Part shown: positions 1,093 through 64,000 of the stretch, in pieces
Position numbering within the stretch: position 1 is the stretch's first letter
Layout of the letters: every line of letters starts with the position of its first letter
Notes under the pieces: model-generated
What the model was told of the DNA's origin: nothing
Seen by the model: the letters and a program-made list of their open reading frames with translations, nothing else
Database searches by the model: none
Source of the DNA: Amoebophrya sp. A120
Taxonomy: Eukaryota > Protista > Dinoflagellata
Reading direction: 5' to 3'
NCBI GenBank assembly: GCA_905178155.1
Contig: CAJINV010000007.1
Location: 466,020 to 530,019 of the forward strand
Length of the DNA stretch: 64,000 bases
Made by a program: the position numbers and the translations under genes

Positions 1093-2870
1093 ATGGATAT
1101 CGTCGTGCTCGACACGGAGAACCTCCCGGACCGCACCTATGTCTCCATTCGCATCGGAGACATGCGGCGGCAGGCTATGAGAGTGCACAACTCCCTCTCC
1201 CCCTCATTTGTAATGCAAAATCCCAAATCCTGTTGGTGCCTTGTGGCAGTGGTTGCATTGCAAATTCTGCAAGCCCAAACAGTCCAATAGTTTGGGCATG
1301 AACTTGTCATGCACAGACTCCACGTGTGTTGGTCGTTGTGATGCTGGTCATGCCAGACAAATGAGGGGGAGGGGGAGTCGTGCACTCTCATACAGGCCCC
1401 CTGGAAACCGAAATCCACTTCCAAGCCAACCGCAGTGACCGAAGGCGAGGAAGCCACGACACCCGAAACCCCGTCAAAGCCGACGGCAAGTGACTCCGTG
1501 TTTCATTTTTCCAAATCCTCCCATGCGACCATGAAAGTGGACCTGTTTCAGCACCTGGGCTCTACATCGGTTGGGATGTACAGAATGAAAAACGACGACG
1601 AGCATGTGGAAGAGTTGAAGATTGCGAACACTGCTGCTATGGTGGAGAATACTAGCGAAGTTCAGGAACAAATCATGAAGTTGAAATGCAAATGCGTGTT
1701 TCAAGACGAGAGAGTGGACGAAATGGGCAGGCAAAAGCGGCAGAGCCGACACCAAGTGACGCTGAATGCGACGAAGTATTTGGACGATCACGAGATTCAG
1801 CCGACATTGCAAGCGCTGATCCGGGCGTTGTTGGATAAACAGTATTTGAATTTCTTTGCTTGTCTTCATGCGTCATTCGCATAGACTTTGGTTTTTGAAA
1901 CATACATGGAGCAATAATTACGAACCGAAAATTCAAGTTTGTTTCACAACCCAAACCAAAACTACTGTACAGGCCCGAAGACGCGCTCGCCTTCATGGTG
2001 AGCCACTTGAACAAACTCCGCGGGATTGACGATGCCGCTCCGGCCCCCGCCCCGGAAGGCGAGGGGACGATTGCGGTGGAAGAAACTACTGCGGTGGAGG
2101 TTGCTGCGGCGGGGCAGGACGAGCAGCCGCCGGCAGAAGATGTTACTACCCCTGGTCCACCGGCGGAGGAAAGCGGTCCGGCGGCAGCTGAAGAGCCTGC
2201 GGCGGCGGTTGAAGAAGCTCCGGCTACTGCTGATGCCGTTGATACAGCTGCGGCGGAGGAAGCGCCTGCTCCTCCGGCGGCCGAGGAGGAAGCTATTGCT
2301 CCCGCGGCCGAGGAGGGTGAAGCTGCGCAGCCGGCGGGTGACGAAGCTGCCGCGGCGGAGGTGACGGAAGAACAAGCTCCTGCTGCCGCGGAAGAAGCAG
2401 CTGCGCCGGCTGCCGAGGATGAAGCTGCTGCACCCGCGGCGGCGGACGAAGCTGCTGCTGCGGCTGAGGAAACGCCGGCTGCCGCGGCTGAGGAAACGCC
2501 GGCTGCGGCGGAAGAGGAGCCGGCTACCGCTCCGGAGGAAGCAGCGCCCGCTGCGGAAGAGACGCCGGCCGTGGCGGAGGTAGAACAATCACCTCCAGCT
2601 GAAGCAGAGCCGGTAGCCGCGGCCGAAGAAGCCCCCGCAACTGCCGCTCCGGAATCTACCGAGCCAGAAGCTGCCGGAGGTGAAGGACCTGCGCCCGAAG
2701 AGGCTACGGCGGCAGAAGAAACTCCTGCCGCACCCGCGGCGGAAGAAGAAGCTCCTGCTGATGTTGTACCCGCGGCGGAAGAAGCTGCAGCGGCTGCTGC
2801 TCCGGAAGAAGCACCTGCGGCTGAAGCGGCGGCAGAAGAAGTGCCTGCTGAGTCCGAGGCTGCGGCTTAA
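1093..2870 (+). CDS. Protein with RIIa/Dpy-30-like dimerisation motif and long Ala/Glu/Pro-rich C-terminal tail; exons 1093-1173, 1396-1841, 1973-2870
   Basis: Removing intron 1174-1395 (introner, GC-AG register) and GT-AG intron 1842-1972 joins ORFs 994, 1435 and 1995 in frame: MDIVVLDTENLP...RRQAPWKPK...YLDDHEIQPTLQALIRALLDKQPEDALAFMVSHL (RIIa/Dpy-30-like pattern). Confidence 0.85.
1176..1392. mobile_element. Introner, family A
   Basis: ~36-bp TIR (tatgagagtgcac...ctcatttgt) with 2 mismatches; TSD caggc at 1171-1175 and 1393-1397. Confidence 0.95.
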
Positions 2871-3809
2871 GGGGAGAGGGAAGAGACTGAGAGTTTGCAT
2901 TTTCTATATTGAAAATTTCACGCGGGGGCCGTTGTATTCTTTCGTTGACAACATCACATGCATTTACCTGTTTTTGACCTTGTGGTCCAATTTTGTACAT
3001 TACTGTTTTTTCTCAGCACGACGGCACACTCTAGTATTTGTGCTTTACGACGCCGGAGGCGCAGTTCTATCATTCGTTACGGTTTAGTCCTGGGGTTTCA
3101 GTCCTCGAAAGCGCCAGTATTTTTCATGAAGCTCTTTATTTCAACTTTGCAAAGTACGCGCGTAGCAGCATCAAAAAGCAAATGTAGTACATTCGCACAC
3201 CATAAGCTACAGAGTTTTTGTGAAGCTGCGCAGCTCAGCTTCCAATCGCAAACACGGTAGTATTTCCGTCTTGTGGACTGAACATCTTTAGAATTCTTGT
3301 GTCACCTACTTAACGCATTTACATTTTCTTTCTTTCGCACACAAAATTTTTACATGACGACCACGCCGGGGGCTTTGAAAAGCGGAGGTGAAACCTAAAT
3401 AGAAAAAGCAGAAGACTTTGTTCGCAGCGGTGCCCTTTACATGAGTGAACGGCAGCAATTTTTTGCTGGCACGGAAGAAGGCGCGCAAGAGAGATTATGA
3501 GTGCGAAGAAGTGCAGGTCCTGGTTCATAGTTCTCCAAAAAATCTGAGAGGAGATGCCGTGCCGACTGATACCGCAACAGAGAAATGAGCCGGCAAATCT
3601 GAAGACCTTGCTGAGAGACCACGGCCGTGCGTAGGAGGGGATGCAGGAATGGATAAATACCTGTGTGGTTCTTGTACGCGGCGCTATTATTAATCTATCG
3701 GTCACCGGGAAGAAATTGAAATCTAGAAACCAGAAAAAAACTCAATGGACACTTGAAATACGTAAACGCAGAGAGGTATAACAATCACTTGGCAGAGAAC
3801 AACCGAAAG

Positions 3810-6800
3810 ATGAACTTACTGCGCGTGGGCCGCGCGTTGCCCGCGCGGTGCTTGACCGTGCTTCTTTCGCTAATCCAAAGCGTCATGGCGGCGGACTGGT
3901 ATGTGCTCTACGCCGGCGACCTTCCGGTGTACATGTCGTCGGTCTGCCGGCTCAGGTGGCTTCTGATCACAAACGGGGTCAGCAAAGACAAGGTATAGAA
4001 GAAGAACTTCTGAATCATTGCTGGTACTATCTGTCATGCAAAACTCGCAAGAAGCACCTGCCTTGTGATGCGCGGCAAATGTAGTTGTGCAACTACACAG
4101 AGCAACATCGGAAAAAACAGATCATCACTTTCGGAAACAAAATAAAAAACTACCCGACTTTCGACGGCCTTCCCGCACCGGATGCAGCCTGCGAGCCAGA
4201 TTTCACCGTAAAGGATGGGGTGTCGGAGAGTTTTTTCTTCAACGCTTTGAATCAAACGTATGATGGTGGGGTATCGGCCCCGAAGGTTTATGCAATGCAA
4301 AAGCATCGTACTAGTATGAATTGCATGACAATTTTTTTCTGGAAGAAAAATGAAATTTGTCATGCAGATTCAGTTAATAAAGCAGATCTGTAATGCTAGA
4401 CTCGCATTTATACGAGTGCGATACTTTTGCAATGTATAAGGTTCTAGCGACGACAAATAGCGACAACGTTTTCATGTATCTGGCAGGGGACACCGGATAC
4501 GACACAATAAGGCTATGCAATGCAAAAGCATCGTACTAGTGTAGATTGCATTACGAATTAGCCCAGCATTACAAATTGAATTTGTGACGCTGATTCACCT
4601 TGAGAAATAGAGTTGTATTGCATAAACGCAACTGCTACAAGTACGACACTTTTGCACAGGATAAAGGCTCGACGGGAGCAAAAACGTCATGCACGGGTAC
4701 GTGACTTTTTTATTGCGAGAGTTTATTGTCATGCTGGAGGTTTTCGTTTTGGTTTTCCACATGAGTTTCTGTTTTGCAGGAAAGTGCAAGAATACAAGCT
4801 GGTGCATGATTCTTCTTATGTTACCCAGTGGTCAAGTAGAAATAGAAAACAAAAACAACCAAAGGTACGACCTTTTTCAGACGCTGATGGACTCCGGCAC
4901 CAAATTTCGGCAAATGCGCATCTTTCTAGACGGCACGCACTTCGGGGACACCTTCATGAAGTCCGCCATCAGCAGTGCCACCACCTGGAACAGCAATGTC
5001 GCAAAGTCAATAAGGATCACAGCCTCCGTATTCAAGAAAAAAACTGTGTTAGTGTAACTTTCCTTGGCTGACAGCATCACAAATTTGCTCTGCATGACAG
5101 CGAAAACCTGTCATGCGTCGCTTGTAAGGGAAAACACACATGACAAGAGGACTGCATGGCTGTCTGGCATGACAGGCGCAACTCTGTTGCATGTTCTGCA
5201 TTACAAAGTTACACTTACACAGTTTTTTTCTTGCATACTCCGGCACCGGGAGCGCGGACGCGACGGGAGCACAGGCCTGTTTTTGCGCGCCACAGACTAG
5301 TGTCAGGGACGCAGTGGAGCGGTTCAGGAATTTGCACCACCTGGCAGAGAGTCGTATTTGATATTTTTTTTCAGGTGTTTCTTCTTGTCATGCAGAATGC
5401 GGCACGAGAGGGGATGTTTTTGATGCAAAAATGCATAATACACTATCAGATGACACCGACCCGCACTACTGTCTGTCCACCCGCTTTGGGCTCACTTTCA
5501 CGTCCACAAACACCGGACCCATATTGAGAGGAAAAATCTCCCCTCCCCATATCAAAATGGAAATTTGTGATGCTGATTTGTGGTCACAAATCATCTTTGT
5601 CTTGCCTATAGGGCAATAGGAGCCAACATGTGGCGCATTCCAAAGCCAATCTGTCATGCGCTTTCGGCTACTGCGAACCTGTTTTCCATGCATAATTGCT
5701 AGCCTTCTGCATACCCAAACAGGCTCAGAAATTGCCGCCAAGCACTTTCTGCAAGACAAACCTGATTTGTGTACTCAAATCCAGCATCAGAAACTTCGTT
5801 TTGATATGGGGTGGGGGGATATTTCCTCACAATAACCCACCTTCGAAAACCACTTCGCCGCCGTGTATGCATTGCAAATATGTCTGGGTCTGGAAGATTG
5901 AAGGAGTTTGTCATGCAAATTTTACAGGACCATGTTGTCGGTGATGCATGCTCTGGCATTGCAGGTTCCGCGAAGGCTTTCGGCTTTGGCTTTCTCATGC
6001 CGATTCTGCATGAGAAATGGGTCATCTCCGGGAAGCAAAAATCTGAGCACCTTTATTTGCTGCTCATGCAATACAGAATTTTCTCTGCTCGCAAGTTAGC
6101 ATGACAAATTCCATTCTTTGCAGACTGCCAGACATATTTGCAATGCATACCGTGAAAAACTCCACAACGTCTGGGGAGTACATCGCGGCCTCAAGTTATC
6201 CAAGAAAAAAACTATGTGAGTGTAAATCTGTGATGTAGAAAAAGCAAAACTGTTGCACTTGTCATGCTGGGTCTGCGTCATAGGCTATTTTCATACGTGT
6301 TTTCACTGATACTAGCTGCGCATGACAGGTTATTTTCCCTGTAATGCAAAACGAATTTGTGATGCTGCTCTTCCGTACAAAATTACACTTACACAGTTTC
6401 TTTCCTGGATACAAGTTCGGAGATGGAATACGGCATTTTCCCGGAAAACACGAACGGGGACTACTTTACCTACTGCACGAACAGCACAGCCTATCGCAGA
6501 GGAGAAAAACAGTGTTAGTGTAGGTCTGTGATGCAGAAAATGCAACACAGTATACACTTGTCATGCCACACGACGACCACGAAGTGGTCCTTTCATATGT
6601 GTTTCCACGACGTACCAGCCACGCATAACAGGTTTTCTCTGCTCTCATGCAAAGCAAATTTGTGATGCTGTCACCCCAAGAATTTTATACTAACAGCTTT
6701 TTTTTCCTGGACACAGCCACGTCCACCGGCGCGGCGGATTGCAACAACATGTACACGGCGTTTCCCTTCACCAACGCGGATAGCATTTATGCATTGCAAA

Positions 6801-8506
6801 TATCCCTGGATGTTTGGAAAGGTGCAAACTTGTGATGCTCTCTGTCAGTTACAGAAAAATCTGTCATGCATGTTGAGCAGCGAAAGCTGTCCATGTGGGG
6901 TAAGCATTTTTGCAAAGCTGTTGCAACAAATTCTGTGATGCTACGGCCCGCCTTCCAAACCGTCTCGGCCATGCAAAAGATGCACGACAAACGTCGGCAC
7001 TCTTCCAGAGGACCCAGATATATTTGCAGCACTTGATAGCATTTACACTTTCCCCAATTACGCCTCCGGGTGCACGAAACACAACAATCTCGTCTCCACC
7101 GAGCTCCTATCAAATGCAAAAATGTCTGGGTCTGGAAACTTGTGATGCTAAAATGTGGATAATAGAAACAGTTCCGAATGCAACCCAGCATGACAACTTT
7201 CCAGAACGCTTTCGCATCGGCAATCCGCATGAGAAGCTGCGACTTTGCATGTACAAAAGAGGCCGCGACTTTTGTTGGTTATGCAATACAGATTTCCTAG
7301 GTATGGAAAGCTAGCATTACAAGCTCCAACCTTCCAGGCCGAGACATATTTGCAATGCATAGCTCCTTGGCAGCTACTACTTTGACAAAGCATTAAGGAG
7401 AAACGACAACGGGGCTTTGAAAGGGGAACTGGGCCTGCGCGTGGACGCAAAAGCGAAGCTGGACAGCTTCATCACCAGCCACCAGTGCATATGCATTGCA
7501 AATGTGTCTGGGTCCTCTGGATTTGTAATGCAAAATTTGAAAGACAGCGAGGATTTGTGATGCATGAACACGATTGGGCAGTTTTTTTGTCATGCTGTGA
7601 AACTGATTTTGTCATGCGAAACACGGTAGAACTCGCAATACCAAGCGAAAAACTCGTGATGCGTAGACGCCGTAGAAGACACCGCTCTGCCATGCATGAC
7701 TCAGCAACAGAAATTCGTTGCGTCTCTCGAGACCCAGACATATTTGCATTTGATAGTGCACGCAAGTCGGCTGTCTCGACACGACCGTTTCCCTCACGAC
7801 GGCCGCAGAAAACGCGTGCTTCAAGGACTTGTTCGCAATAGTCCAGTCGGGGACGGGGGCGCCAGGTACATAAGTAAGTACTTAAGTAACTCTGGTGCGC
7901 CAGATGAAGAAAGGATTTGAAGATTTGTATATGCATGAAAGAACACGACCGTACAAGAAACGCTTTCTCAACATGCTTGCTGACATTCTGAATAGTTACA
8001 ACATGACCATAAAAATCCACCGATCAGGTTACTCCGCCTACACGCTGAAAACGTGGACGCTTCCGTTGGCCAACATGTGCAAGCAGCATAGCGCCGCAAC
8101 ACTAAAAACGGATTTGACGGCTCTACTCACGTCCAGCGGAGGCAACGAGGCGGCGAAGGCGACGAATAACGCAGACGTGAGTTTCATTCTAGCCATCGTG
8201 GGCTTTGCGGTGTCGGGGGCGTTGTATCTGTTCTTCATGTTTTTCGACACCAGAACGATGGAGGACACGGAGGAAATGCAGGTAAGGGTTTTTAGTTGAG
8301 GTTTGTCATGCGAACAACCTATGCATCAAAATCAAATACAACCAAAAATCGTCATCCACGGTTCTCCGGCATGAGCGTGAGTAAGTATCTGACCACTTTG
8401 AAAACGAAAATCATCCCAGGCCATCAAAGACAAGGAGCAGTCTCGGGCGGCGGGGCGAAAATTGCTGCAAGAGCACGACCGGGCGCACGGGGCCTCGCCG
8501 TTGTAG
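3810..8506 (+). CDS. Multi-exon type I membrane/secreted protein of unknown function (signal peptide, Cys/Ser/Thr-rich ectodomain, C-terminal TM); 9 introners plus about 6 conventional introns
   Basis: Hydrophobic N-terminus (CLTVLLSLIQSVMA). Frame stays open when elements are removed (DPHYCLSTRFG...TFENHFAAV KNSTTSGEYIAASS SEMEYGIFP...). TM VSFILAIVGFAVSGALYLFFMFF. GT-AG introns at 3993-4084, 4697-4779, 4831-4864, 7866-8027, 8282-8419; one junction near 5300-5449 is unresolved. Confidence 0.8.
4289..4438. mobile_element. Introner, family B (150 bp)
   Basis: TIR tatgcaatgcaaaagcatcgtact; TSD aggtt; GT-AG register 4286-4440. Confidence 0.92.
4514..4663. mobile_element. Introner, family B (150 bp)
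   Basis: Same left TIR as the 4289 element; TSD aaggc; GC-AG register 4512-4666. Confidence 0.9.
5029..5237. mobile_element. Introner, family C
   Basis: TIR tattcaagaaaaaaactgtgttagtgtaac; TSD ctccg; no AG acceptor in any register. Confidence 0.92.
5522..5834. mobile_element. Introner, family D
   Basis: TIR tattgagaggaaaaatctcccctccccatatc; TSD accca. Confidence 0.92.
5866..6149. mobile_element. Introner, family E
   Basis: TIR tatgcattgcaaatatgtctgg; TSD ccgtg. Confidence 0.92.
6197..6411. mobile_element. Introner, family C (opposite orientation to 5029)
   Basis: TIR tatccaagaaaaaaactatgtgagtgtaa; TSD caagt. Confidence 0.92.
6492..6713. mobile_element. Introner, family C (degenerate)
   Basis: Imperfect TIR; TSD cagcc; frame restored on removal. 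Confidence 0.85.
6788..7038. mobile_element. Introner, family E-related
   Basis: Imperfect TIR (tatgcattgcaaatatccctgg); TSD gcatt. Confidence 0.85.
7108..7361. mobile_element. Introner, family E
   Basis: TIR tatcaaatgcaaaaatgtctgggtctggaa; TSD gctcc. Confidence 0.92.
7490..7755. mobile_element. Introner, family E
   Basis: TIR tatgcattgcaaatgtgtctgggtc; TSD gtgca. Confidence 0.92.
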
Positions 8507-10820: not shown

Positions 10821-13800
10821 ATGCGTGACCCCTTCGGCCAGGAGCGGTCGATCTGTTTGAAATGCCAGAAGCACGACCGGGAGTGTCTGGAGTTTTTGCC
10901 CAGCGACATGGACACCGACTGCCTGGACAACGGGGATTTCGATTGGGAAGGGGAAATGAAGGACTTGGACGAGCGAAAAGTCCTGCCCTGCATTCTCGAG
11001 TCCATCACCGCCTACCGACGGAGAACCTTCGACGAAAGCAACATCGTCTGCAAGGCGACAAATTCCAGTTCCTTGCTGCAGAATCTCGTTGGCGGCGGGA
11101 GTAGTGGGTCTACTTCTTCGCCATCTTCACCAAGCAATAATCCCTGCATTGCCACCACGAGCAGTGGTTCTTCCCCGATGAATAAATCGGGTGTACAAAA
11201 ATCATCCGCCAGTACCCTGGTGCAGAAAACGTTCCCACCGACCTTAGCAGCCAGCGCAGCAGCAAACAGACAAGGATCTACGTCGACTTCGAATGCGGCA
11301 AATAACAAATTCACCTCCTACTCGCGGATTTGCCACTGCGGGTGCGATTGCGAAGACCACTTGCTGGAAGTGGTTTCGAAACAGGAGAAAATCGTGTTGA
11401 ACCTGATCCGGCCCCATTTTCAGATGCTGAAACTCAGCTACTCGGTGATGCAGTCGGTTACTGACACGGTGCACTTGGACATTCCCCGAACGGAGTTCAC
11501 CTACGGGGAGATCTACGATGTGGCCTTCCTGCGGTTTCTGAACGAATTGTGGGACGAGTATTACGGGGGAGATAATTTTCTTTCGGCTGCAGGTGCCGCG
11601 GTATCATCCCCTGCAAGCCCAGCCTCGCCGAAATCAGCAGGCCCAGGAAGTCCTGCTTTTTCTTCGCCCAAAAATAATACCGGCGCAGCAGCAGGTTCTT
11701 CGCCCAATGTCCCGCACACGCGACCCAGCAAAACCACTGCCGGGGCCGCGCTGGCGGGGAACGGCTCACCGACGAATTCGAAAACTACGAATCTGCTGAA
11801 GAACAACACACAGACTTCTAGCAATCCCGGAACAACATCACCAAGTAGCAACAGGCAAGGAATATTAAACAGTACGAACGGCGCCACCTGTTCGCCGAAG
11901 CCCCTCTCTCCCTTCCACGACCAGTCGCCGGATGTGTCGAAAAGAAGACCGTTTCAGGGAAAATTCCTGGACCTCGGCTGCGGCACGGGGAAGGCGGTTT
12001 TTCTCGCAACTTGGTCGATATGACAGTGCACACCCCCCCCTCCCCCTCATTTGTCATGCAAAATACCCAGTCCACCCTTTGACTCCTAGCGCTGTTTGCG
12101 TGACAAGTTCTGGTAGCCCAAATAGCATTATACTCCCTTGCAAATTTGTCATGCAAAACCGGCACTCCTGCTGATGCTTGTATTGCCGTTCACGCTATAC
12201 AAATGAGGGGGAGGGGGAGTTGTGCACTGTTATAGCCGAAGTGGCAGTTTGAGAAAGCGGAGGGAGTGGAATTACTCCCCGGCCTGCACAAGCTTGCGTG
12301 CTATCTGAAAGACAGCATTTATATCACACAGCAAAAAGTAAAAGCTGGCAGGGCACATTTGTAATGCAAAAAGAAATACTCAAAATCTGCGCTGCACATC
12401 CGAAACAGCATGCTATGGGGCCACCCATGACAAATTTTTCTGTGTATTTATTTTTGCATTACAAATCTGCCCTGCGAGCTTTTTTCTCTGGGATAGTTTA
12501 CAAGTCGTGTGACGCCCTGTCCCCGAAAACGCGGTCGGTGGTATTCTAAGTAAAAACATCCCCACCCCAGAGTTGTCATGCAAACCTGCATGGCAAAAAA
12601 GTTTCTCATGCGGAGCCCCATGCGAAGCATTTTCTCGTCGTGTGTTGGAATTTGTGGTGCTTTAATCAGCATGAGATGCTAGGTCTGTGATGCTGCTATA
12701 CTAGCTAAACAGCATTACACTACGAGGACAAAACTGTCATGCGACACAACCCAAGCTAGTTCAATTTGTCTAGCTGATTTTCCAACTACTTGACTACGGG
12801 TTGGGGACGTCTTTCCTCGGGATACGTGGCGAAAATTCCCCAAACCGACGTAGAATTCTTTCTCGGGGACGTGGCGAAGTGGCATCTGCAGCAGGCGGGG
12901 AAAGAAGAAGCAGAAGAAGGAGAACAAGACGGCGCAACAAGTCGTGCAAATGAAAACAATGATCTGAAGCTCGTGTACATCGCGTCAACGGTTTTTGGCG
13001 AGGAACTGATGGCGAAGATACGGTTCGATGTACTGCCGAAGGTCTGGTATGCAAGTGCAAAAGCATGGACAACGAAGTTGCTTGCCCATATTTAATATTT
13101 GGTGGAATTACCACCAAGTGTGTAGACAAGAGAGAAGCTTGTCGGCGAGTATCTGATGTGTAGTCTGGTACAACGGCCTGCTCGTGGTTCATTCTTCGAT
13201 ACAGAGCGGAAGAATCAGTGATGCGAAACTACGTACTGCGGTATTTTGAAACAGTCACATGCATAATTTCCTGCTCGCTTCAATCATTTCTCCCTCGTGG
13301 GCGACACACAGACTCCAAGGAAGTACAACTTCGCAGCCTTTGCAACCGTTCCATAAATGCAGCAGGGACACGATCATTGTGACGCTGAAGAACAAATTGC
13401 CGGATATAGAAATTTATCAACTGTAAAAATGTCTGGGTCTGGAAGAATGCAAGTTTGTCATGCTTGTCTGGCATGACTCGGGAATCTGTGTTGCATAGGC
13501 ACGAAAAGGCGCTTTTACCTGTCATGCAAAAACGCAGTTTGCCATGCAAGATACGTAAGACATGGGAGCCAAAAAATTTGTCATGCATAGCTGCGTATTG
13601 CAGTCCGTCTACCATTCACTTTTAGCATCACAAGTTTCCAGACCCAGACATTTTTACATTTGATAAAATTTTGCAAGAAACAAAACTCCTCGTCTCCTGG
13701 GGCTATAGCCCTTGCTACGTCTGTCGCCTGCCGGTATCAAAAGAAAAAATCCCCCCTCCCCATATCAAAACGGAAATCTGTGATGCAGATTTGTTGTCAC

Positions 13801-14079
13801 AAATCAGCTTTGTCATGCTACACGGGAAAAGATGCGGACTGTAGTGCTGGGTGGCGTGGGGAAGCCTTGCATCTTCAGCATGATAGGAGGCAGCTGAGAG
13901 TGGGGAACAGCATGACAAATTGCCTGCAAACGAGGCCACGACTGCGGCTCTTGGCCTTCTAGCATGACAAGTCGATTTGTGACCTCAAATACAGCATCAC
14001 AAATTTCGTTTTCGATATGGGGAGGGGGGATTTCTCCTTTCGATAGCCGGTTGATACGGGTCGTGCGGAAATAAAATGA
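10821..14079 (+). CDS. Class I SAM-dependent methyltransferase, DOT1-like, with low-complexity Ser/Pro/Asn insertions
   Basis: Motifs FTYGEI, FLDLGCGTGKAVFLA, GVELLPGLHKLA, VEFFLGD, LVYIASTVFGEELMAKI and LVSWG, assembled after removing elements at 12019, 12302, 12542, 13415, 13735 and a conventional intron after ~13041. Confidence 0.75.
12019..12234. mobile_element. Introner, family A
   Basis: TIR tatgacagtgcaca...ctccccctcatttgt; TSD gtcga/gccga. Confidence 0.9.
12542..12824. mobile_element. Introner, family F
   Basis: TIR tattctaagtaaaaacatccccacccc; TSD ggtgg/cgtgg. Confidence 0.85.
13415..13665. mobile_element. Introner, family E
   Basis: TIR tatcaactgtaaaaatgtctgggtctggaa; TSD aaatt; empty site present at ~14310. 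Confidence 0.95.
13735..14045. mobile_element. Introner, family D
   Basis: TIR tatcaaaagaaaaaatcccccctccccatatc; TSD gccgg. Confidence 0.95.
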
Positions 14080-14302
14080 GGAAGAAGCTTTTGATCACGG
14101 CGAATATATAATGCGCATCACTCAGTGCTACTGATAGCACGCAGTTTTTTCCTGCTGTTGTACTGTGCATTGTACTAAAAGGACGGCTCCTGCGTAAGAG
14201 TTCTTGGGAAATAAGAGGAGTATTAGCGAGAAGTTATCGCAAGGAAAAATCCCCCCTCCCCATATTGAAGAGGTAGGTTTTCGAAAATTTGTGTTGCTGA
14301 TT

Positions 14303-14700
14303 GATATAGAAATTTTGCAGGAAACAAAACTCCTCGTCTCCTGGGGCTACATATCAACTGCAAAAATGTCTGGGTCTGGAAGAATGCGCGATTTGTCATG
14401 CTGCTTTTCCATGACCCATGAGGTCTGGAACGCAGGACCTAGCATGAAGGATTCTGCGAGACCTTTCTCATGCCTTTCCTGCATGAGAAACTCCCTCCCG
14501 ACTTGGTCAAAACTGGGCGACTTTTGGTAATCATGCAACACAGATTTTTGCATGCAGCAGATTTAGCATGACAAGTTGCAATTTTCCAGACCCAGACATT
14601 TTTACATTTCATACTACAGCCCGTGTTACGTGTGTCGCCTGCCTGTAGTTGATACAGGTCGTGTGGAAAAATGATGAAGAAGTTCGTCACGAATACTTTG
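14303..14700 (+). pseudogene. Duplicated last exon of the methyltransferase gene (orphan fragment or alternative terminal exon)
   Basis: gatatagaaattttgcaggaaacaaaactcctcgtctcctggggc and downstream sequence repeat 13403-14100 with different introner content; preceded by a truncated family D end at 14235. Confidence 0.8.
14352..14613. mobile_element. Introner, family E
   Basis: TIR tatcaactgcaaaaatgtctgggtctggaa; TSD ctaca. Confidence 0.93.
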
Positions 14701-34464: not shown

Positions 34465-34470
34465 CCAGAA

Positions 34471-44639: not shown

Positions 44640-44698
44640 GGTGATCTTCATCTTTTCGTCGTTGTAAAAATCACAGTGAGTACAACTGCTACAACAGC

Positions 44699-47600: not shown

Positions 47601-48123
47601 GTGGTCACTATCCCGTGAAAAAACGTCCTCATCCCATAGTTGTCATGCACTTCTGCATGCCAAAAACGTTTCTCATGCGGACCCCTATGAGAAGCATTCT
47701 CTGTTCGTGTTTTGCAATCTGTGATGCTAGAATCAGCATGCTATGCTAGATCTGTGATGCTTCTGAACTAGCTAGACAGGATGACACTAGTACGAGGACA
47801 AACTTGTCATGCCAAACAACCAAAGCTGGTTGATTTGTCTAGCAGATCTCCCATCTTGACGCTGGTGTGGGGACGTCTTTCATCAGGATAGTCACCACGA
47901 CGAGCTTTACTACGACGACGGCGGGGGCTACTACGAAGGAGACGGTGGTGGAGACATGATGGGGTACGGCGGACCACCCGGATACGGGGGCTTTGACGAC
48001 GGGGGGTATGGAAGCTACCGGCCCTCGGCTATGCGCCCCAGCAAGGGGATGGGCGGGAAGATGAGCAAGGGAAAGGGCAAGTACAGCAAGGGTGCGAGTG
48101 GCTACGGAGGTTACGGTTATTGA
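44699..48123 (+). CDS. Cys-rich type I membrane protein, family member 3
   Basis: Signal-like N-terminus; GCWAGGCYHV, TCWFKHC, RRTWTCKIPDCV; Ala-rich stalk; TM MIGGAVLVVVLCGVVGAYC; Gly/Tyr tail ending GASGYGGYGY*; two internal junctions (~45810-46220, ~46445-46710) unresolved. Confidence 0.75.
46760..47052. mobile_element. Introner, family E (degenerate)
   Basis: Imperfect TIR; TSD gcggc/gtggc. Confidence 0.82.
47263..47513. mobile_element. Introner, family E (close copy of 42417)
   Basis: TIR; TSD ggttc. Confidence 0.93.
47609..47890. mobile_element. Introner, family F (similar to 12542)
   Basis: TIR tatcccgtgaaaaaacgtcctca; TSD gtcac. Confidence 0.9.
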
Positions 48124-49108
48124 ATAGAGGTCGGAAGGAAAAGGCCTTTATTGCGTGTAGACACCCGCTGGAAACTACAACTACAACTTGTTGAGTACTT
48201 TACTTTTCTCTCACTCGCGTGATTGAAATCGGCTTTGTCTACTGTGCCTCTATCTACAGTATCCTCTTTAGCGCAGTAGCATTTGATGCGGCCACGAAAG
48301 AGGGCAAAAATTGTCTCACTTCGTTTTTTTAAGCACGACTTGTTTCTTCTTCTTTCCTTTCCTTCATCATATCGGAGCTTTGTTGCAATTTCATTTCCAA
48401 TGAAGTTCGACATTTTGACTTTCCTGTGCACAACTGGTTTCTAATTTTACTCTCTCATAATTCTCCCACGATGATGGCTCTTCTAGTGGGAAGATTCTTC
48501 TAGGACTCGAAGTGCAAGACAAACAAGCCCCGACTCTTGAAGTGAAAGATGCGAGTGGGCTTCTTGAAGTGGTGAAAGATGGTGCCAGTCGCTAGTGCTT
48601 GTTTTCATCGCAGTTTCCTGAATCGTGCAGCTCGTGCGGATTGTTATCTGTTTACCGTCTTCACGCATTTTCGTCCATTTTCCGATCGTCCCATTCATCG
48701 TCCATTTTCAGATCGTTGCGGTGGCGTTTATTCCGCTGCAAAGTGAATGTAGTGCACAGCAGCTCGCGCCTGGCCTGGGCGTCTTCGATGCTCATGGTCG
48801 TTCTCGTTGTCTTACCTAGAAACCCTTGGCAGCTGTAATTGTTGTTCTGATCAAACTTCTACAGGCTCCTTCTCCACAATTCAACTACCCTAGCTCCTTC
48901 CCCTCGTGCCCGTTCGCACCCCCATTTAGGACGACATCCAGGGGAAGTCGGGCTGATATGCATTATTCAAGCTTTATTCCAAATTCCCGTCTGAGTACTA
49001 CGCTCGGACGTTGTTCCATTCCCCCATTTTCAGCGAGTACTGTAAACCCAGGATTGGATTTGTACGTCGTAACTAACTTCTGATACGACCCCTAGGAGGA
49101 CGGAAACA

Positions 49109-50599
49109 ATGAGCAGGACCACTGCGAAGACAACCCCTTCCTCGGGTGGACTTCTCACGAGTCTTCTCTTCAAGCAGATCGGCGTTCTACTCGGTAGTAG
49201 AACGCAACACCTTTTTCCGGCACGACCGTCCTCTGGATGTTGGATTGGTTTCATTTTCGATTTGCTATTTGTTTCTACTTCCCTTTATTCACCATCTGTC
49301 TCCGACGTCTGTGGCTTTCAGTTGGTGGCGAGAAAGCACGAGGATCATCACGGTACGGGTACGGAGCGAAGAGATAGAGAAGAAGTACAGGGACGAGGTC
49401 TTGATGCAACGACAGGAGGACCACAGGTGTTACAAGACGTGGAGAACCACCGCCGGGGCCCTGACGTTCATTCATCCCACCAGCAGCAGCGAGACGAGAG
49501 AACTACTGCCAGAGCAAAGGCCGACGAAATTATATCACGACACGCAGATTTCGATTTGTTTTTACTACCACACAGCACTACAAGAAGGACCACCACCACC
49601 AAGCCTGCTGCAGCGCTAGGTGTAGTTCAGTCGGCCGATGAAGAAGTACAACTCCACCTAGCGCCGGACGAAGAACATCGAGAGCAAGTGGACACCACGG
49701 CTGCGACCGCTTTTCTGTCCTCAGCGGTATCTGCTGGTCATGTCTACTCTTCTGCAGCGACACCATCCGAGTACACTGGCGTCACCTACGAACAAATCGG
49801 GAACGGGTGGTGCGCTAAAGCCGGCGCGACATTGGATTATCTGTTCGTGGCGGAGGTCACCGAGGAAGTGTGCGAGCGGTCCTGCACGAATAATGCTTGG
49901 GTCGAGGCGTTGGAAGACCAAGCTGCCTATCAGCTGGAAATATGTCTGGGTCTGGAAACTTGTGATGCATGTCAGTGAACAGAAAGCGCGCTGTAATGCA
50001 TCGCCAAGCATGACAGCGTTTCTCGTGGCTCTGTGTTGCGTATTCCGCATGAGAAACATCGTTTCGCATGACAGACAAGAGGAGGTCTTCGTGGCCACGC
50101 AATACAGAGTTTTGAGTCATGCCAAACTAGCATGAGAAGTCTTGCAATCTTTCAGACCTAGACATATTTGTAATGCATACTGCCTGGGAGGCGAAAGCGA
50201 ATACCCGCGAGTCCTGGACCGCTTGGAGGGAAGAAAACCCAATTACCACCTGCACGGGCTACATGTATTCGGGAAATTGCATGACATTTCAGAACGTGCG
50301 CCCCGACGGCGTCGCGCACACAAACACGGGGTGGGACGCGTATGCCTGCAAGCGGAAGACGGAGATGATTGTGTCGTGGGATAGTGTCGGCCAAGGGTGG
50401 TGCGGTACCGATGCGGGAGCAATTACGGGCGAGATTTTTGTCTCCAACCTGTCCTCTTTTGAGTGCGCGCAATCCTGCGCCAACAATGCGTGGGTGGCAA
50501 GTCTAGGGGACGACCAGGCGGCCTGGGAGCAAGAGTTTGGCGTCTCGTGGGACGCATGGACGCAAAGCAAGCCGATAACTGGAACCTGCACGGCGTACA
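49109..50599 (+). CDS. Secreted protein with tandem PAN/Apple-like Cys/Trp-rich repeats, cut off by the Penelope-like insertion
   Basis: Two repeats G.GWC…FV…C..SC.NNAWV..L…AW…W.AW….PI…CT.Y; joined over element 49928; runs into a family B left end at 50600. Confidence 0.7.
49928..50179. mobile_element. Introner, family E
   Basis: TIR; TSD ctgcc. Confidence 0.9.
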
Positions 50600-57830: not shown

Positions 57831-60800
57831 ATGATGGGTTCTTGGAACATCAGAAGGACCCAGCATAGAAGTGCCTTCTCCACCTTCGGGTCTTGCGCGC
57901 ACAGTCTCTACTCGACACGACCACGAGGATCTTTTCTCCTGTCACTTTTCCTCCTCCTCGCGCATCATCTTCAAGATCATAGTGCAGCAAACGCATTCCA
58001 GCTCGTGCAGCAGAAACGGACAGGAGATCTGCACAGGACGTTGTCGCACCGGAGCAAGAACCAGCATGGCCAGAAGATTTTTGCAAGTAGTTCTCGCACA
58101 ACTTCTGTGGTTTCCGCGGATCAACAGGGAGAGGACGGCACGACGAGGACCGGGGGTATGTTGATTATTCTGAGTAAAAACGTCCCCACCCCATAGTCAA
58201 GTTGGGAATCTAGCAACACAAATCTCCAAGTTTTGGGAGCTGTGCATGACAAGTTTCCCTCTGCAACGGAGTGCTGATTGGCAAGAGAAGCCGCATGAGA
58301 AAGCAACTTTCCCATCCTGTTTACAGCATCACAGATTCCACAACACGACTGGAAATGCCTCTCATGGAGCTGCGCATTACAAATGTTCCTGTCGTTGCAC
58401 ATTTGCATGACAACTCTGGCGTGGGGACGTTTTTACACAGGATATTGATGCAGGTTTCATCGTCCTCCAAAACCGGAACCGAATATGGATTGCAAATATC
58501 CCTGGATGTCTGGAAGAGTCGAACTTGTAATGCTTTCCGCGGATTCTAAAAATATCTGTGGTGCATGAGCAGCAAGAGGAGTCAGTTTTTGGCACGCGGA
58601 GAGGGCATTTCTCATGCGTAATTGGCATCAAGCAGCTCTCAAAAACTTTAACTTTGTGATGGTAGCACCAGCATCACAGAACTCACGGGTCATGCAAAAC
58701 GTGCATGACAAGCCCCGACTCTTCCAGACATCCAGGGATTGTTGCAGTTGATACCGAAAGCGGAACCGCAAAAATTGAGTCGGAGGACAACTCGGTGATC
58801 ACCGACAACTTTGAACTTGTGGGGAATGGTATCCAAGAAAAAAACTGTGTAAGTGTAACTTTGTGTTGCAGAAAATGCAAAACTGTTACACTCGTCATGC
58901 TGGACATGCATCAGAGGCTATTTTCGTACGTGTTTTCAAGTGCTCTCGGGCTGGAGGAGGGAGTAGCACGCAGCAGTCCGCAAAAGGGCACACTGCCAAC
59001 ATCATCATCATCATCAAGTACTAGCTACGCATAACAGGTTTTCTGCGTCATGCAGCATGCAGAGCAAACTTGTGATGCTATTCTTCCAAGAGACTTACAC
59101 TTACACAGTTTTTTTCTTGCATAAATGGGCACTGCGGGAACGATGATCACCCCCTGTGGGCGAATGCGCAGTTTGTGGCGGATGTCAACGAAAGGCAGTG
59201 TGCGGAGTCTTGTCTTAATAACAAATGGGTGGAAAGCCTCGACAATGAAAGCGCTTGGAACTCGAAGCACTTTCCCAACGGCGATGGTACTTGGAAAACG
59301 TGGAGCGCAGACAAACCCATCAAGGGAGAGTGCACGGGTTACAATTATTCAAATAACTGTCTGATTTACAATGACGAATCAGGAGCAGAAAAAAAGTTTG
59401 CAGTAACCCAGGTCTGGAAAAAGGAGGAGGAAAGGGAATCCTGGCTTTCCGATGCGTTGTATGGCAAGGGAGATGATGCAGAAAGAAACACGTTGAAAGA
59501 CCTCCTCGACAGTTGGAGTACGCATCCCTGTAAGAAAAAGAAGCCTTGCGTCGGTTTCGGGTTCCATGACGCCAGTTCGTGCAATGGCGCGCACGAGGAA
59601 GACAAATGCGTGTGGGGTGTGAAGTACAAGTTAGAAAGTGCGGAAAGATGGGTGGAGGAAGGTGGTGAGGAGATCTGTCTCAGCTGCAGCATAAGCATTG
59701 CAAAAGCATTGCACTGGTAGAAATTGCATTTATACAAATTTGCTCAGCATAGCAAATGGAATTTCTAAATGCTGATTTGGCTCCGGAAGGAAATTTGTGA
59801 TGCATAACTGCGATTACTGCGAGTGCGATACTTTTGCACAGGATACAGCACAAAAGACGGAAAGACCGAGGCCGAGTGCGAGGGTTTTTCGGGCGGCAGT
59901 TGCGTGTATGAAGCTGGCGAAGTCAATCCAGCCGAGGGTCTGTGTGTGCCGAAGCCAACGACAACCACGACCACAACCACGACGACAACCACGACATTGG
60001 CGCAAGCTCCGTCACCCAGCGTATCGTAAGGAAAAATCCCCCCTCCCCATATCGAAAAGGCACACCTCAGAAAATTTGCCATGCTGATTTGCGACCACAG
60101 ATCTGATTTGAGTTTTTTTGTTTTTAAGGCTAGGAAAAGACATGCAACTGGGGACAGCACGCTATTGCGCATCTAGCACCCGTCAAGTCCAGGAGAACGA
60201 GCCAAGGACGCTCCCACCAATGCAGCAACGGCCGTCCCTGGGTGGTTGAGTGTCGTCCAGACCGACGGCGGTAGATTCTTCTGGAGGCGGAGGCTAGATT
60301 TTCAATAGTGGAGGAAAGATGTCAAATTATGTATGAAGTGCTCACGTATTCTATACCCTAATGCGACCCAAAAAGGAGAATCTCTCCTCCGTCAGCATGC
60401 CAATAGCATTTGGGTGCACTACTGTGTGGAAGGCTCTTCTACTTTTTCCAAGCGGCTGGATTTCTCGTAGAATTGCCGTCGCACAAGTAGCGCAAGTGAC
60501 ATCTTTTAGGGGGGTGCCTACCCTTTTGCATGTTCGATTTTGATTCGTTATTTCTTGATTTTCAGAATGATGATGATAATTTTTTCTGGTTAGCCCGTAG
60601 CCATTTTGGCTCAAGCGCTAGCCCGCGTAGCCCGCATCCTCGCAGGGGCAGCTGTTTTTTTTTCCGCCTTGCCAGCGGATTTTGTCGCGGGGAAGAATGC
60701 AGTCTGGGTTCAGCCGTCCCTCCCTCCCGGGGTTCATCTACACAAACACTAGTCCTGCGTCCTTACTCTAGTCCTTTTTCCGTAGATCATGTCTTACGTT

Positions 60801-63121
60801 CGACCTTATGGCATCGGCGGCTGTCGCATTATGCGCCTGGTGTAGTTGTTCAAAGTCCTTCGGCATAAGGGTCATAGTCTCGTATACAAGGCGCGCGACA
60901 GCTAAATGCGCGTTTGGTCGTTCTAGAAAATTAGTATCACCTGATCCATTCTCGGCCTATAGTATTCGTGGACCACCCCTTTGAGGAAGCGGGTGCGCTC
61001 GGTTGACCTCTTTCATAGGTTGGTCATGGGGAATTCGTTTCCCACTTGTCATGCATTATTGGTCGCCGACATTTCGTTTTTGCATGGCGTGCTCGAGTAC
61101 CGGGGTGCTGGAAGACGAATTAGTTGCTAATAGATAAAATCAAAAATTTTCACTACTCTTCGTGCAGCGGCTTCTGCACATAGCTTTAGTCTCGACCTTT
61201 AGCCCCGCCCCCCCAAAAACATTACATATTTTACTACGTCTCCATCTACGTCCCAACGTGGACGTCTGCCGCGGCTTTCGGCATTAGACGTTAACTAAAG
61301 CGAGTGCGTTGCGCGGGTTTAGGGTTCCCCCGGTTTGTATCTCCCGAAAGGCATGCTTTGATGGGTTTAGGGTTTCGAAGAAATTTTATCGCATGACGCG
61401 TGACGGGAGCACGCTAGGTAAGCGCAGCGGGCGGGTACCGTTCTCGCCGTAACACAATTCCAGAAAGAAAAAAGACATCTTTTTGGGGGGTGCCTACCCT
61501 TTTGCATGTTCGATTTTGATTCGTTATTTCTTTTTTTTTAGAATGATGATGATATGTTTTTCTGGTTAGCCCGTCTAAAAAGGGCTGGAGTCCCCTTTTC
61601 CTTTTCTTCAATATTTTTTTTGCATGCGGGTAGCCGAATAGAGGCCGAGAGGACCACTGTCCTCGAGTCTGCGCAGCGGCTTACTGCGCAGCGTCGGTTC
61701 GTACACGTGTGTCGCCCTTCGTTCGTCCTCTTCAGGAGCTTGATCGCAAATTCGTACGCTCCTCCTGCTTTAAAAAAATACGATCTTCCCGGCTTCCCCC
61801 ATATTCCCATGTAGATTTTGGCGCCTACCCCTTTACTTCTTCTGTCGTGTAGTGTTGTTGGCTTACCTGACTCGCCTTCTTAGCGCTAGCCTGCGTAGCC
61901 CGCGTCCTCGCAGGGGCAGCTGTTTTTTTTTTCCGCCTTGCCAGCGGGTTTGATTCTGGGGAAAGTGGCTTTCTGAGTTCAACCGTCCCTCCCACCCGGG
62001 GATCAACCGTCCCTATCCCTCCCCCGTTTTAGATAGACCGTTTTGCGCAGCCATAAGCACGACTTGAAAAACAAAAAAATACAAATAATTTTTTGTGTAG
62101 ATCACATTTTTACGTGCGTTTTTTCGGCATCGGCGGCATTCGCACTTCGAACCCGGAGTAGTTTCCAAAAGTCCCTCGGCATCTGGGTCATAGTACAGCT
62201 TCAGGGTTCCGCGTTTGCTAAATGCACGGCTTTTCGCACTTAGGTCACTAGTATCGCCTGTTCCAAATCAGCTCGACCATTTAATATTCGTGGGCCTCCC
62301 CTTAGAGGAAGCGGGTGCGCTCGGTGGGCCGTTTTCATAGGTTGGTCATGGGGGACCTGCTCCCCATTTGTAATGCATGACTGGCCGCCGAAGATCTCAG
62401 TTTGCATTTGCGTGCTCGAGTACCGGGGCGCAGGAAGGCGAATTAGTTCTAATAGATATTTTGAAAAATTTTAATCTCTTCGTGCAGCGGCTTACTGCGC
62501 ATACAAATATTCTCGACCGATATCTTTGTATGTGGGCGCGCAGAAACTTTTTTTCGATTTACTACGACCCCATCTACCTCCCCTGGTGGACGTCTGCCGC
62601 GGCTTACGGCTCTAGACGTTAACTAGGATTCAGTGCGTTGTGCGGGGTTTAGGGTTCAAAGTAATTTTGTATCTCCCACTGCTGCATGCACTCTGCTGGC
62701 GATCTTATCATGCAAAACAACCTCCGGGTTGTTCCCGCGTATCAGGAGTAGTCCTGGTGCGTGAGGGCCGCAGAAGATGAAGAAAGGTGATGGTTTAGGG
62801 GGTTCGCCGATTTTGTACATGTGTGATGCAAAAGATGAAAAGAATTTCGCGCGTGGGAGCGCATTAGTAAGCACAACGGGTGGGTGCCGTTCTCACCGTA
62901 ACACAAGCCCACAAGAACAAGAACATGATCCGCTCCCGCAGGCAAAAAAAATTTGCGACCACAGATCCTCTCTGTCTTGCACGAAGGCAACCCCACAGGC
63001 CCCGCAGTATTATGTAGGCAGTTTGTGATGCTATTGGGCCTACAGCATAGACGTTTAGCATGCTAAGCACCTAGGCCAGCGCCTCTCTACTCGGGCTTGA
63101 TATGGGCTTGCAGTCCTCTAG

Positions 63122-63216
<95 letters not shown>

Positions 63217-64000
63217 GTGTAAGCAGATCTGGCATCAGAAGCTTCGTTACGATATGGGGAGGGGGGATTTTTCCTTTTGATACAGCACGGACGAACAGCA
63301 GTCGGGACCTAGTCCGACTCCCGTATCATATGTAAAAACGTTCCCACCCCATAGTCAGGTTGGGAACTCAGCAACACAAATGCAGAAGTTTTGGGAGCCA
63401 CGCATGACAAGTTGCAGTAGTCCGCAGTATAGTGCACGTTAGCAAGGATATCTTCCGCATCGCAAATCCATGTGCTTGTCTTGTTTGCAGCATCACAAAT
63501 TCCAAAACAGGACTGGAAATGCCTCCGTTGGGGATGCGCATTACAAATGTTCCTGTAGTCGCAAATCTGCATGACAACTCTGGGAAGATGGGGACGTGTT
63601 TACACAGGATATCCCAGCGCCACACCTTATGTTTCTCCACCAGGGGAGGAGTCCGCGATTACCACATTGCACCTCATTATGGATGTGTCAGGAGTGAAAT
63701 CGACAAAGTTGAAATGATTTGTTTATGCATAAAATGCAGCCCACAACGTGCCTGGCTTGCAGAGTAGGCAAGTGAGGCAGATTGTAAGCCTGTTGAGGGG
63801 TAGAAACTGAGCTGCTAAAATAGCATGCCAAAAGGCGTTTTCTTTACCCAAACAGCATCACAATCTGGATTTCGGTTCTACCCAAATTTGTCATGCACCA
63901 CTTGGAAACTGGGCTTCCAACTGGTATCGATTTTATGCATGACAAACTATTTTAACTTGGACGATTGCAATCCTGACACTCCCATAACCATTCTGATCTG
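57831..64000 (+). CDS. Secreted/membrane protein with a PAN/Apple-like repeat, a second Cys-rich domain and a Thr-rich stalk (paralog of 49109); continues beyond the window
   Basis: Frame restored over elements 58166, 58484, 58830, 59692, 60022, 63324 and 63678: FELVGNGHCGNDD…QCAESCLNNKWV…ECTGYNYSNNC…PKPTTTTTTT…PSTDEQQSGPSPTP. Confidence 0.72.
58166..58444. mobile_element. Introner, family F
   Basis: TIR tattctgagtaaaaacgtccccac; TSD ttgat. Confidence 0.92.
58484..58753. mobile_element. Introner, family E-related
   Basis: TIR core atccctggatgtctggaagagtc; TSD ccgaa. Confidence 0.9.
58830..59123. mobile_element. Introner, family C, with a 78-bp internal insert
   Basis: TIR tatccaagaaaaaaactgtgtaagtgtaa; TSD aatgg. 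Confidence 0.93.
59692..59845. mobile_element. Introner, family B
   Basis: TIR taagcattgcaaaagcattgcact; TSD cagca. Confidence 0.88.
60497..62906. repeat. Two diverged tandem copies (~60497-61458 and ~61474-62906) of an unidentified repeat
   Basis: Collinear shared blocks at 60497/61474, 60614/61882, 60962/62284 and 61400/62850. Confidence 0.85.
63121..63217. repeat. (TAC)n microsatellite, about 32 units
   Basis: Perfect trinucleotide run at the right end of the 3-kb insertion. Confidence 0.97.
63324..63611. mobile_element. Introner, family F
   Basis: TIR tatcatatgtaaaaacgttccca; TSD tcccg/tccca. Confidence 0.88.
63678..63986. mobile_element. Introner, family H
   Basis: TIR tatggatgtgtcagga; TSD ctcat/accat. 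Confidence 0.85.

What the first reader, a model, noticed from the sequence alone, without database searches (positions are those of the whole stretch)
1171..63991. Window-wide system of TIR/TSD transposon-introns removed without GT-AG signals
Seen: about 45-50 elements of 150-315 bp, nearly all with TA(T/C)...ATA ends, 20-40-bp TIRs and 5-bp TSDs, sitting inside coding sequence. Deleting the element plus exactly one TSD restores the frame; I checked six in a row at 5522-7755, and further runs in the 15657 and 57831 genes. Most TSDs (ctccg, accca, ccgtg, gcatt, gctcc, aaatt, catct, cacca, accgc, ctgcc) give no G[TC]-AG register. Known: introner elements with inverted and direct repeats and non-canonical junctions are described in Amoebophrya, but I know of no established removal mechanism. 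Inference: a precise removal route guided by the TIR hairpin and TSD, either non-canonical RNA splicing or DNA-level excision.
Basis: partly seen in the sequence, partly recalled or inferred. Interest (0 to 1): 0.92.

Follow-up and report, generated by a model that had tools for sequence, protein, structure and literature searches.

The report
Parasite transposon introns, one fixed cut
These are the already described transposon-derived introns of the marine parasite Amoebophrya A120; deposited proteins and one likely-RNA contig fit their removal at a single fixed position without the usual GT-AG signals, likely by a relaxed form of the normal splicing machine.

Summary
Observation confirmed. 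The window holds 52 TAT...ATA elements with terminal inverted repeats and 5-bp target duplications (TSD), mostly in coding sequence. It is Amoebophrya sp. A120 (two deposited proteins, 100% identical), and these are the introners of Farhat et al. 2021, so the system is known.

Two details were not in the text I could search. (1) The cut is fixed. Diverged TSDs place the intron from the last base of the left TSD to the fourth base of the right TSD. Only this register rebuilds both deposited proteins (17 elements), and it fits a 1,914-nt likely-RNA contig to the base. (2) The ends are conserved asymmetrically on the gene strand: U+2, A+3 and A-7 are kept, while +1, -1 and -2 are free (p=2e-5).

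That favours RNA-level, sequence-read removal, likely spliceosomal with a branch A at -7. It argues against DNA excision or a purely hairpin-guided cut. No lariat data were seen and no transposase was found. The scan noted a similar element earlier in Prorocentrum (e1-7693921, unchecked).

The parts
1176..1392 (+). Introner, TSD CAGGC, in gene 1093-2870 (a GC-AG register is available)
4289..7755 (+). Ten introners in one gene starting at ATG 3810: 4289-4438, 4514-4663, 5029-5237, 5522-5834, 5866-6149, 6197-6411, 6492-6713, 6788-7038, 7108-7361, 7490-7755; all with perfect TSDs
   Evidence: junctions near 4697-4880 and 5355-5440 not resolved
12019..14045 (+). Six introners (12019-12234, 12322-12495, 12542-12824, 13048-13355, 13415-13665, 13735-14045) in a methyltransferase-like gene (DLGCGTG motif, recalled, not confirmed by Pfam)
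   Evidence: Likely-RNA contig of 1,914 nt equals the spliced length of 10816-14302
13047..13359 (+). Intron at the fixed register (GT...TG); TSD copies TCTGG/AATGC restrict the RNA cut to k=2-4
   Evidence: table 8 (piece ends at 13044)
14285..14700 (+). Duplicated gene tail: empty sites for 13415 and 13735, and its own element 14352-14613 at a site that is empty in the first copy
   Evidence: alignment
16184..20423 (+). Ten introners in gene 15657-20656 (16184-16495, 16560-17147, 17185-17490, 17558-17842, 17896-18388, 18480-18746, 19139-19421, 19483-19745, 19764-20167, 20209-20423), plus nested 16883-17134
   Evidence: Only k=4 rebuilds deposited protein P0001, 510 aa
22174..22425 (+). Introner, TSD GTTGA, 3' end AGA
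30107..30370 (+). Older introner, TSD CGCTG/CGCGT, ends TAC...ATG
34204..34464 (.). Introner, TSD CCAGA, coding context unclear
35242..35512 (+). Introner, TSD CATCG/CATCC
40300..43289 (+). Seven introners in gene 39749-43490 (40300-40551, 40597-40908, 40997-41393, 41468-41704, 41751-42010, 42417-42668, 42980-43289)
   Evidence: Only k=4 rebuilds deposited protein P0003, 562 aa
40996..41397 (+). Intron with a single possible boundary pair (GT...GG); TSD copies GTGAG/AGGGA
   Evidence: free-boundary search
44334..44639 (.). Introner, TSD GGTGA, outside clear coding sequence
46760..50179 (+). Introners 46760-47052, 47263-47513, 47609-47890, 49928-50179
58166..63986 (+). Seven introners in the gene from 57831 (58166-58444, 58484-58753, 58830-59123, 59692-59845, 60022-63282, 63324-63611, 63678-63986)
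   Evidence: open frame to the window end after removal; no deposited protein found
60022..63282 (+). 3,261-bp element with family TIRs and TSD CAGCG/CAGCA; no transposase ORF found

Best explanation
The elements are non-autonomous TIR transposon copies (Amoebophrya A120 introners) inserted into genes with 5-bp duplications, and they are likely removed from the pre-mRNA at one fixed register, likely by a U2-type spliceosome with relaxed end recognition. The intron runs from the last base of the left TSD, through TAT...ATA, to the fourth base of the right TSD (N|TAT...ATA|NNNN). The mRNA thus keeps one TSD copy whatever its sequence. The TIR supplies U+2 and A+3 of a GUA-like donor whose +1 base is free. 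It also supplies an A seven bases from the 3' end, inferred to be the branch point from which the 3' cut is measured, with no AG needed. Both ends are the same TIR, so either orientation works. Shown: anatomy, empty sites, frame restoration, the register (through deposited proteins and one contig), strand-asymmetric conservation. Inferred: the spliceosome as the enzyme, the branch point, any role of the hairpin or the internal motif, and the mobilising transposase.
For: Register: common k=4 gives proteins identical to P0001 (10 elements) and P0003 (7 elements), and k=0,1,2,3,5 each differ. 40996-41397 is the only boundary pair that fits. The A120 gene models were built from BLAT-aligned transcripts, and two informative k=4 introns end TT-CG and AT-TG, so a GT-AG prior does not explain them. 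Contig X3 record 13 skips 688 and 885 bases, exactly the sums of element+5, with piece ends giving k>=2, k>=1 and k=2-4. Asymmetry: among 298 oriented junctions of 365, 5' end changes fall at position 3 (11) and not 1-2 (1), and 3' end changes at positions 1-2 (15) and not 3 (2). Fisher p=2.4e-5; loci only p=0.0045; stricter orientation p=6e-4 and 0.04. Logos at k=4: +2 T 100%, +3 A 100%, -7 A 99%, +1 G 32%, -1 G 38% (n=297). A120 keeps nearly all spliceosomal proteins and U2/U4/U5/U6, with U1 not found. The U2 spliceosome removes non-GT/AG introns in Fritillaria. A branch point fixed at -8 occurs in Entamoeba invadens.
Against: No lariat or excised intron was seen. Free +1, -2 and -1 bases go beyond what is known for spliceosomes. 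A branch-like yTnAy lies at the 3' end in only 128 of 297 elements, no more than at the mirror end (132). Of three canonical introns checked by eye in the window sequence, one has A at -7. Both signals lie in a 25-35 bp stem that would have to open. Direct transcript evidence is one contig from a run whose RNA status is a guess. The protein evidence is second-hand through gene models. Perfect TSDs cannot show the register, so the six window elements with a canonical register at k=1-3 may use it. One EF-hand-like junction (L142:377) reads better by eye at k<=3. Drift of the free positions toward G was seen in the window (7 of 8) but not in the loci (7 intronic G against 11 exonic G of 22).
Confidence: 0.62

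Rival explanations
1. Same fixed register, but a non-spliceosomal RNA endonuclease/ligase (or a separate ribonucleoprotein) cuts 1 nt before the TIR stem and 4 nt after it and releases a circle, as proposed for euglenid nonconventional introns. The internal TGT[C/G/A]ATGC repeats would be its binding sites.
For: Long terminal stems fold in most of six tested elements. The first and last bases are free. U1 was not found. The motif occurs in 98% of elements, 3.1 per element, 12.2 per kb against 0.03 per kb in exons, and is shared by all TIR families. G.U exceeds A.C at stem positions 21-26 (67 vs 36, p=0.003, one of five tests). Euglenid introns give circles, not lariats.
Against: There is no overall G.U excess in the stem (252 vs 239). 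Terminal changes break pairs freely while particular sense-strand letters are kept. The kept letters fall where a spliceosomal donor (+2U, +3A) and a branch A would lie. The old element 13048 folds without its terminal stem yet is skipped by the contig. The motif is as easily a transposase binding site.
Confidence: 0.27
2. The elements are excised from DNA in a somatic or stage-specific way by a domesticated transposase.
For: TIR/TSD anatomy is that of a DNA transposon. Logan contigs drop rare variants, the life stage of the DNA run is unknown, and 1,919 joint rows were not displayed.
Against: Eight DNA contigs lie on the window with zero differences at depth 23-32, the single-copy level, and run across exon-element borders. 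The likely-RNA run holds element-containing contigs at depth 4-6 beside a gene contig at 182. End conservation depends on the gene strand. The cut lies inside the TSD and works when the TSDs have diverged.
Confidence: 0.03
3. Transcripts use nearby ordinary GT-AG sites or keep the elements, and the element+TSD arithmetic is a coincidence.
For: 8 of 51 window elements offer a G[TC]-AG register. Farhat reports the same repeat layout in 15% of A120 canonical introns.
Against: The contig length is exact over six elements. No GT-AG intron between 40914 and 41467 rebuilds P0003. Only 5 of 297 elements could read through in frame.
Confidence: 0.02

Closest known systems
Amoebophrya sp. A120 introner elements / non-canonical introns (Farhat et al. 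2021, PMC7789003)
   Same: Same strain. IR starting TAT, seven variable bases, then three or more A. Direct repeats of 3-5 nt (5 bp in the Fig. S19 legend), about 240 nt, RNA-seq supported, mechanism open. The nine motifs that Table S4 lists as predominant in A120 all begin NT, as k=4 predicts.
   Different: The paper's Fig. 3 legend calls the border variable or unknown. The fixed k=4 register, the strand-asymmetric end conservation and the shared internal motif were not in the text I read (figure images are not held).
Fritillaria borealis non-canonical introns (review PMC11282704; PMC13326754)
   Same: TIR/TSD transposon-derived introns without GT-AG, removed by the U2 spliceosome.
   Different: Fritillaria has preferred ends (AG-AC, AG-AT) and a conserved U1. 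Here +1, -2 and -1 are essentially free and U1 was not found.
Polarella/Symbiodinium and Aureococcus introners (10.1101/2020.10.14.339549)
   Same: MITE-like introners spliced in either orientation. Polarella class 12 has a 5-nt TSD, and its donor can span the last TSD base and the first element base.
   Different: Those need G[TCA] and AG recruited from the TSD. Here only 30 of 217 offer G[TCA]-AG in any register.
Euglenid nonconventional introns (review PMC11282704)
   Same: A terminal stem brings the ends together, TSD-like repeats, non-canonical ends, and a longer unpaired 3' side.
   Different: Euglenids keep CAG/CTG at +4..6 and -8..-6 and release circles. Here the stem starts at +2/-5 with TAT/ATA, and the excised form is unknown.
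IS3EU/GingerRoot DNA transposons (PMC10045372)
   Same: TA..TA termini. An A120 introner family with an integrase-like ORF and TIRs is reported in PMC12130899.
   Different: Their TSD is usually 6 bp and here it is 5 bp; no transposase was found to place these elements.

Membership tests
Amoebophrya A120 introner elements | Host genome is Amoebophrya sp. A120 | tested here: met
   P0001 and P0003, named A120 by their sources, are 100% identical to window exons
Amoebophrya A120 introner elements | IR begins TAT + 7 nt + three or more A | tested here: met
   A at positions 11-13 in 88-95% of 217
Amoebophrya A120 introner elements | 3-5 nt direct repeat at the exon/intron border | tested here: met
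   274 of 378 exact at 5 nt
Amoebophrya A120 introner elements | Repeated, in families | tested here: met
   312 of 363 have a relative at 78% identity or more; median best 87%
Amoebophrya A120 introner elements | Removed from transcripts at non-canonical ends | tested here: met
   one likely-RNA contig over six elements and two deposited proteins over 17
MITE / non-autonomous TIR DNA transposon | TIRs, TSD, empty site with a single TSD copy | tested here: met
   three sites in the duplicated gene tail
MITE / non-autonomous TIR DNA transposon | Cognate autonomous element with transposase | tested here: inconclusive
   no Pfam transposase hit in nine ORFs from two long copies; no whole genome held
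IS3EU/GingerRoot | TA..TA termini | tested here: met
IS3EU/GingerRoot | 6-bp TSD | tested here: not met
   1 of 378 exact at 6 nt
U2-type spliceosomal intron | G at +1 and AG at the 3' end | tested here: not met
   +1 G 32%; GT-AG in 12 of 297 at k=4
U2-type spliceosomal intron | U at +2 and purine at +3 | tested here: met
   no change at +2 and one at +3 among 298
U2-type spliceosomal intron | Branch-point adenosine near the 3' end | tested here: inconclusive
   A-7 kept in 99%, but the surrounding motif is not enriched over the mirror end
U2-type spliceosomal intron | Lariat product and snRNP dependence | not testable with these tools
   needs lariat sequencing or inhibition
Polarella/Aureococcus-type introner | Canonical splice sites recruited from the TSD | tested here: not met
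   21 of 217 offer G[TC]-AG; xxAGG 8 observed vs 4.1 expected, p=0.05
Euglenid nonconventional intron | CAG/CTG at +4..6 and -8..-6 | tested here: not met
   logos
Euglenid nonconventional intron | Released as a full-length circle | not testable with these tools
   no intron RNA data

The most novel reading that the evidence does not exclude
Amoebophrya A120 runs a second splice-site code in which neither intron end carries a required base. A transposon TIR is read as U+2/A+3 and a branch A, and the 3' cut is simply measured seven bases from that A. A U1-less spliceosome could then erase an insertion at any target sequence, in either orientation, which is what let tens of thousands of copies invade genes.
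Probability: 0.5. Interest if true: 0.82.

Novelty: already known. Interest (0 to 1): 0.5.

Why it matters
The system itself is published, so it is not a discovery. What this adds is an exact substrate definition for an open question: how Amoebophrya removes introns with no GT-AG. A fixed register and three kept bases predict the 5' end and branch point of the excised RNA, so one lariat-sequencing experiment can separate a relaxed spliceosome from a new RNA cutting-and-joining system. If the spliceosome does it with +1, -2 and -1 all free, that widens the known limits of its active site. It would also explain how a transposon becomes harmless at any insertion site.

Tried and rejected
No whole genome was held, so the genome-wide transposase and snRNA searches were not possible.

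No RNA holder was listed on record. The joint table was filled by repeat-driven DNA joints, so exact RNA joint rows were not seen, and gene 3810-7870 has no direct junction evidence.

A homologue search for the 57831 gene found nothing. The search of protein representatives gave no result. The TIR pattern had 0 matches in viral contigs. Rfam had 0 matches in the window. Long copies (60022-63282, L066:3001-3972) gave no transposase hit; the ORFs of L056 and L078 were only read by eye.

Rejected or unsupported: drift of free positions to G (7 of 8 in the window, not replicated in the loci). TSD enrichment for AG/G (G4 z=2.3 and T4 z=-2.3 among 20 tests, not significant after correction). An overall G.U excess in the stem. 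An orientation preference (581 same vs 554 opposite pairs). Strong/weak base polarity as a guide to the register (no signal). A branch motif specific to the 3' end. The junctions near 4697-4880 and 5355-5440 stayed unresolved.
Full report
OBSERVATION. A scan for TA...TA ends with inverted repeats, and a second scan keyed on exact 5-nt flanking repeats, recovered the elements. The second gave 54 rows, some offset duplicates, against 2, 5 and 2 weak rows in three shuffles. The curated window list has 51 elements (35 perfect TSDs, 46 within one mismatch), plus 40997-41393 found later. A TIR pattern search of metagenome contigs returned 145 loci, 408 kb, all from one other assembly and none overlapping the window. 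Together with the window they gave 378 elements, 274 with an exact duplication of 5 nt and almost none at other lengths. With a self-trained codon model, the up- and downstream frames scored separately agree with removal of element + 5 nt at 150 of 160 scorable junctions out of 346. A duplicated gene tail in the window shows three empty sites with one TSD copy. A G[TC]-AG register exists for 8 of 51 window elements and 21 of 217 oriented ones.

IDENTITY. Two window exons are 100% identical to deposited proteins named Amoebophrya sp. A120. Farhat et al. 2021 describe A120 introners with IRs starting TAT, seven variable bases and three or more A, and direct repeats of 3-5 nt. They report 29,850 repeated introns, RNA-seq support, U1 snRNA not found, and an unknown splicing route. 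The window elements match on every point tested. The system is therefore already known.

REMOVAL IS AT RNA LEVEL. In one search the DNA contigs (X1) lie on the window with no differences at depth 23-32, the single-copy level, and run across exon-element borders. This run may be the source of the assembly, and contigs drop rare variants. Run X3 is RNA by guess only, but it skips a canonical intron (8282-8419), which also shows that the tool shifts joints leftward. Its 1,914-nt record skips 688 and 885 bases, exactly (216+5)+(174+5)+(283+5) and (308+5)+(251+5)+(311+5). The spliced length of 10816-14302 is 1,914. Element-containing contigs in X3 have depth 4-6. The two raw-read runs laid gave no gene coverage.

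THE REGISTER. Let k be the number of left-TSD bases kept in the upstream exon. Where the TSD copies differ, the product shows k. The X3 piece ends give k>=2 (12019), k>=1 (12542) and k=2-4 (13048). For gene 15657-20656, a common k=4 over ten elements gives a protein identical to P0001 and every other k differs. For gene 39749-43490, k=4 over seven elements gives P0003, and at 40997 a free search finds a single boundary pair, 40996-41397. The gene models came from BLAT-aligned transcripts. Informative introns end TT-CG, AT-TG, CT-TG and GT-GG, so a canonical prior does not explain the result. The nine motifs listed as predominant for A120 in Table S4 all start NT, as k=4 predicts. Limits: the protein evidence is second-hand, perfect TSDs are silent on k, and one junction in L142 reads better by eye at k<=3.

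STRAND ASYMMETRY. Elements were re-detected with the three terminal bases unconstrained, pooled with the earlier set and four hand-added window elements, and oriented by the host gene (298 of 365 confident). Substitutions at the 5' end hit position 3 (11) and spare positions 1-2 (1). At the 3' end they hit positions 1-2 (15) and spare position 3 (2). Fisher p=2.4e-5; loci alone p=0.0045; stricter orientation p=6e-4 and 0.04. The same base changes on the same strand occur at some positions and not others, so mutation bias is an unlikely cause. Partner bases of a pair behave oppositely, so pairing is not the cause either; G.U does not exceed A.C over the stem (252 vs 239). At k=4 the kept bases are U+2, A+3 and A-7, while +1, -2 and -1 are free.

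MECHANISM. Most likely (0.62), a U2-type spliceosome with relaxed end recognition reads the TIR as a donor lacking only G+1, branches at A-7 and cuts at a fixed distance. Support is the position of the kept bases, the retained spliceosome, the Fritillaria precedent and the fixed branch distance in Entamoeba. Against it, no lariat was seen, the branch context is no better than at the mirror end, and G drift did not replicate. The main rival (0.27) is a non-spliceosomal cut-and-join, as discussed for euglenids, perhaps using the internal TGT[C/G/A]ATGC repeats found in 98% of elements. DNA excision (0.03) and cryptic GT-AG use (0.02) fit poorly. No transposase was found; TA termini resemble IS3EU/GingerRoot but the TSD is 5, not 6 bp.

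LITERATURE SEEN. PMC7789003: outline, passages, sections 10, 11, 12, 16, 25, a supplement search and part 3 of 5; figure images are not held and may show the register. PMC12130899, PMC10045372, PMC12005148, 10.1101/2020.10.14.339549 and 10.1101/2022.06.08.495308: passages only, supplements not seen. PMC11282704: passages and section 6. PMC13326754: passages and introduction. Henriet 2019 and the euglenid circle papers: only as cited in these. Searches listed no paper that, from what I read, states a fixed register or branch point for Amoebophrya introners; subscription journals are not covered. An earlier scan note (e1-7693921, unchecked) reports a similar element in Prorocentrum.

VERDICT. 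Real, and already known as a system; interest 0.5 for the exact cut register and asymmetric end code, which make the open mechanism directly testable.

Noticed in passing
all elements, window and L001-L145: The internal motif TGT[C/G/A]ATGC is shared by all TIR families, forward near the left end (170 vs 4) and reverse near the right end (148 vs 4); it may be a transposase or splicing-factor site.
   Followed up: partly
window 60022-63282: A 3.26-kb element interrupts a coding frame. By eye it holds two related blocks of about 950 bp with GGGTTTAGGG words, and a (CTA)33 run at 63118-63216. Its removal was not seen in RNA.
   Followed up: partly
window 16560-17147: One introner (16883-17134) is nested in the right TIR of another; the outer one is still removed as a unit in P0001.
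   Followed up: yes
window 17896-18388: The element end and next exon appear twice around an N at about 18222, probably an assembly join.
   Followed up: partly
window 3993-4120: A GT-AG intron that starts G|TAT and carries two copies of the internal motif; possibly an old introner that became canonical.
   Followed up: no
window 24401-27979: A 1,192-aa ORF that looks like a non-LTR retroelement (weak RNase H hit, E=0.037; RT-like motif by eye).
   Followed up: partly
window 51154-56475: Two long ORFs (705 and 1,006 aa) between two N gaps with a repeated flank; the second has a YIDD motif by eye and may be a retroelement; no Pfam hit.
   Followed up: partly
window 38015-38557: Tandem repeat with period 251 (sub-period 106-107) and G/C runs.
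   Followed up: no
L066:3001-3972: A 972-bp introner with perfect TSD directly after an RNA polymerase Rpb1 exon.
   Followed up: partly
window 21780-23000, 30000-30500, 39749-43490, 44645-48123: Related genes with a Cys-rich block and a Thr/Gly/Tyr-rich tail carry introners at different positions (by eye); P0003 has no significant Pfam hit.
   Followed up: no
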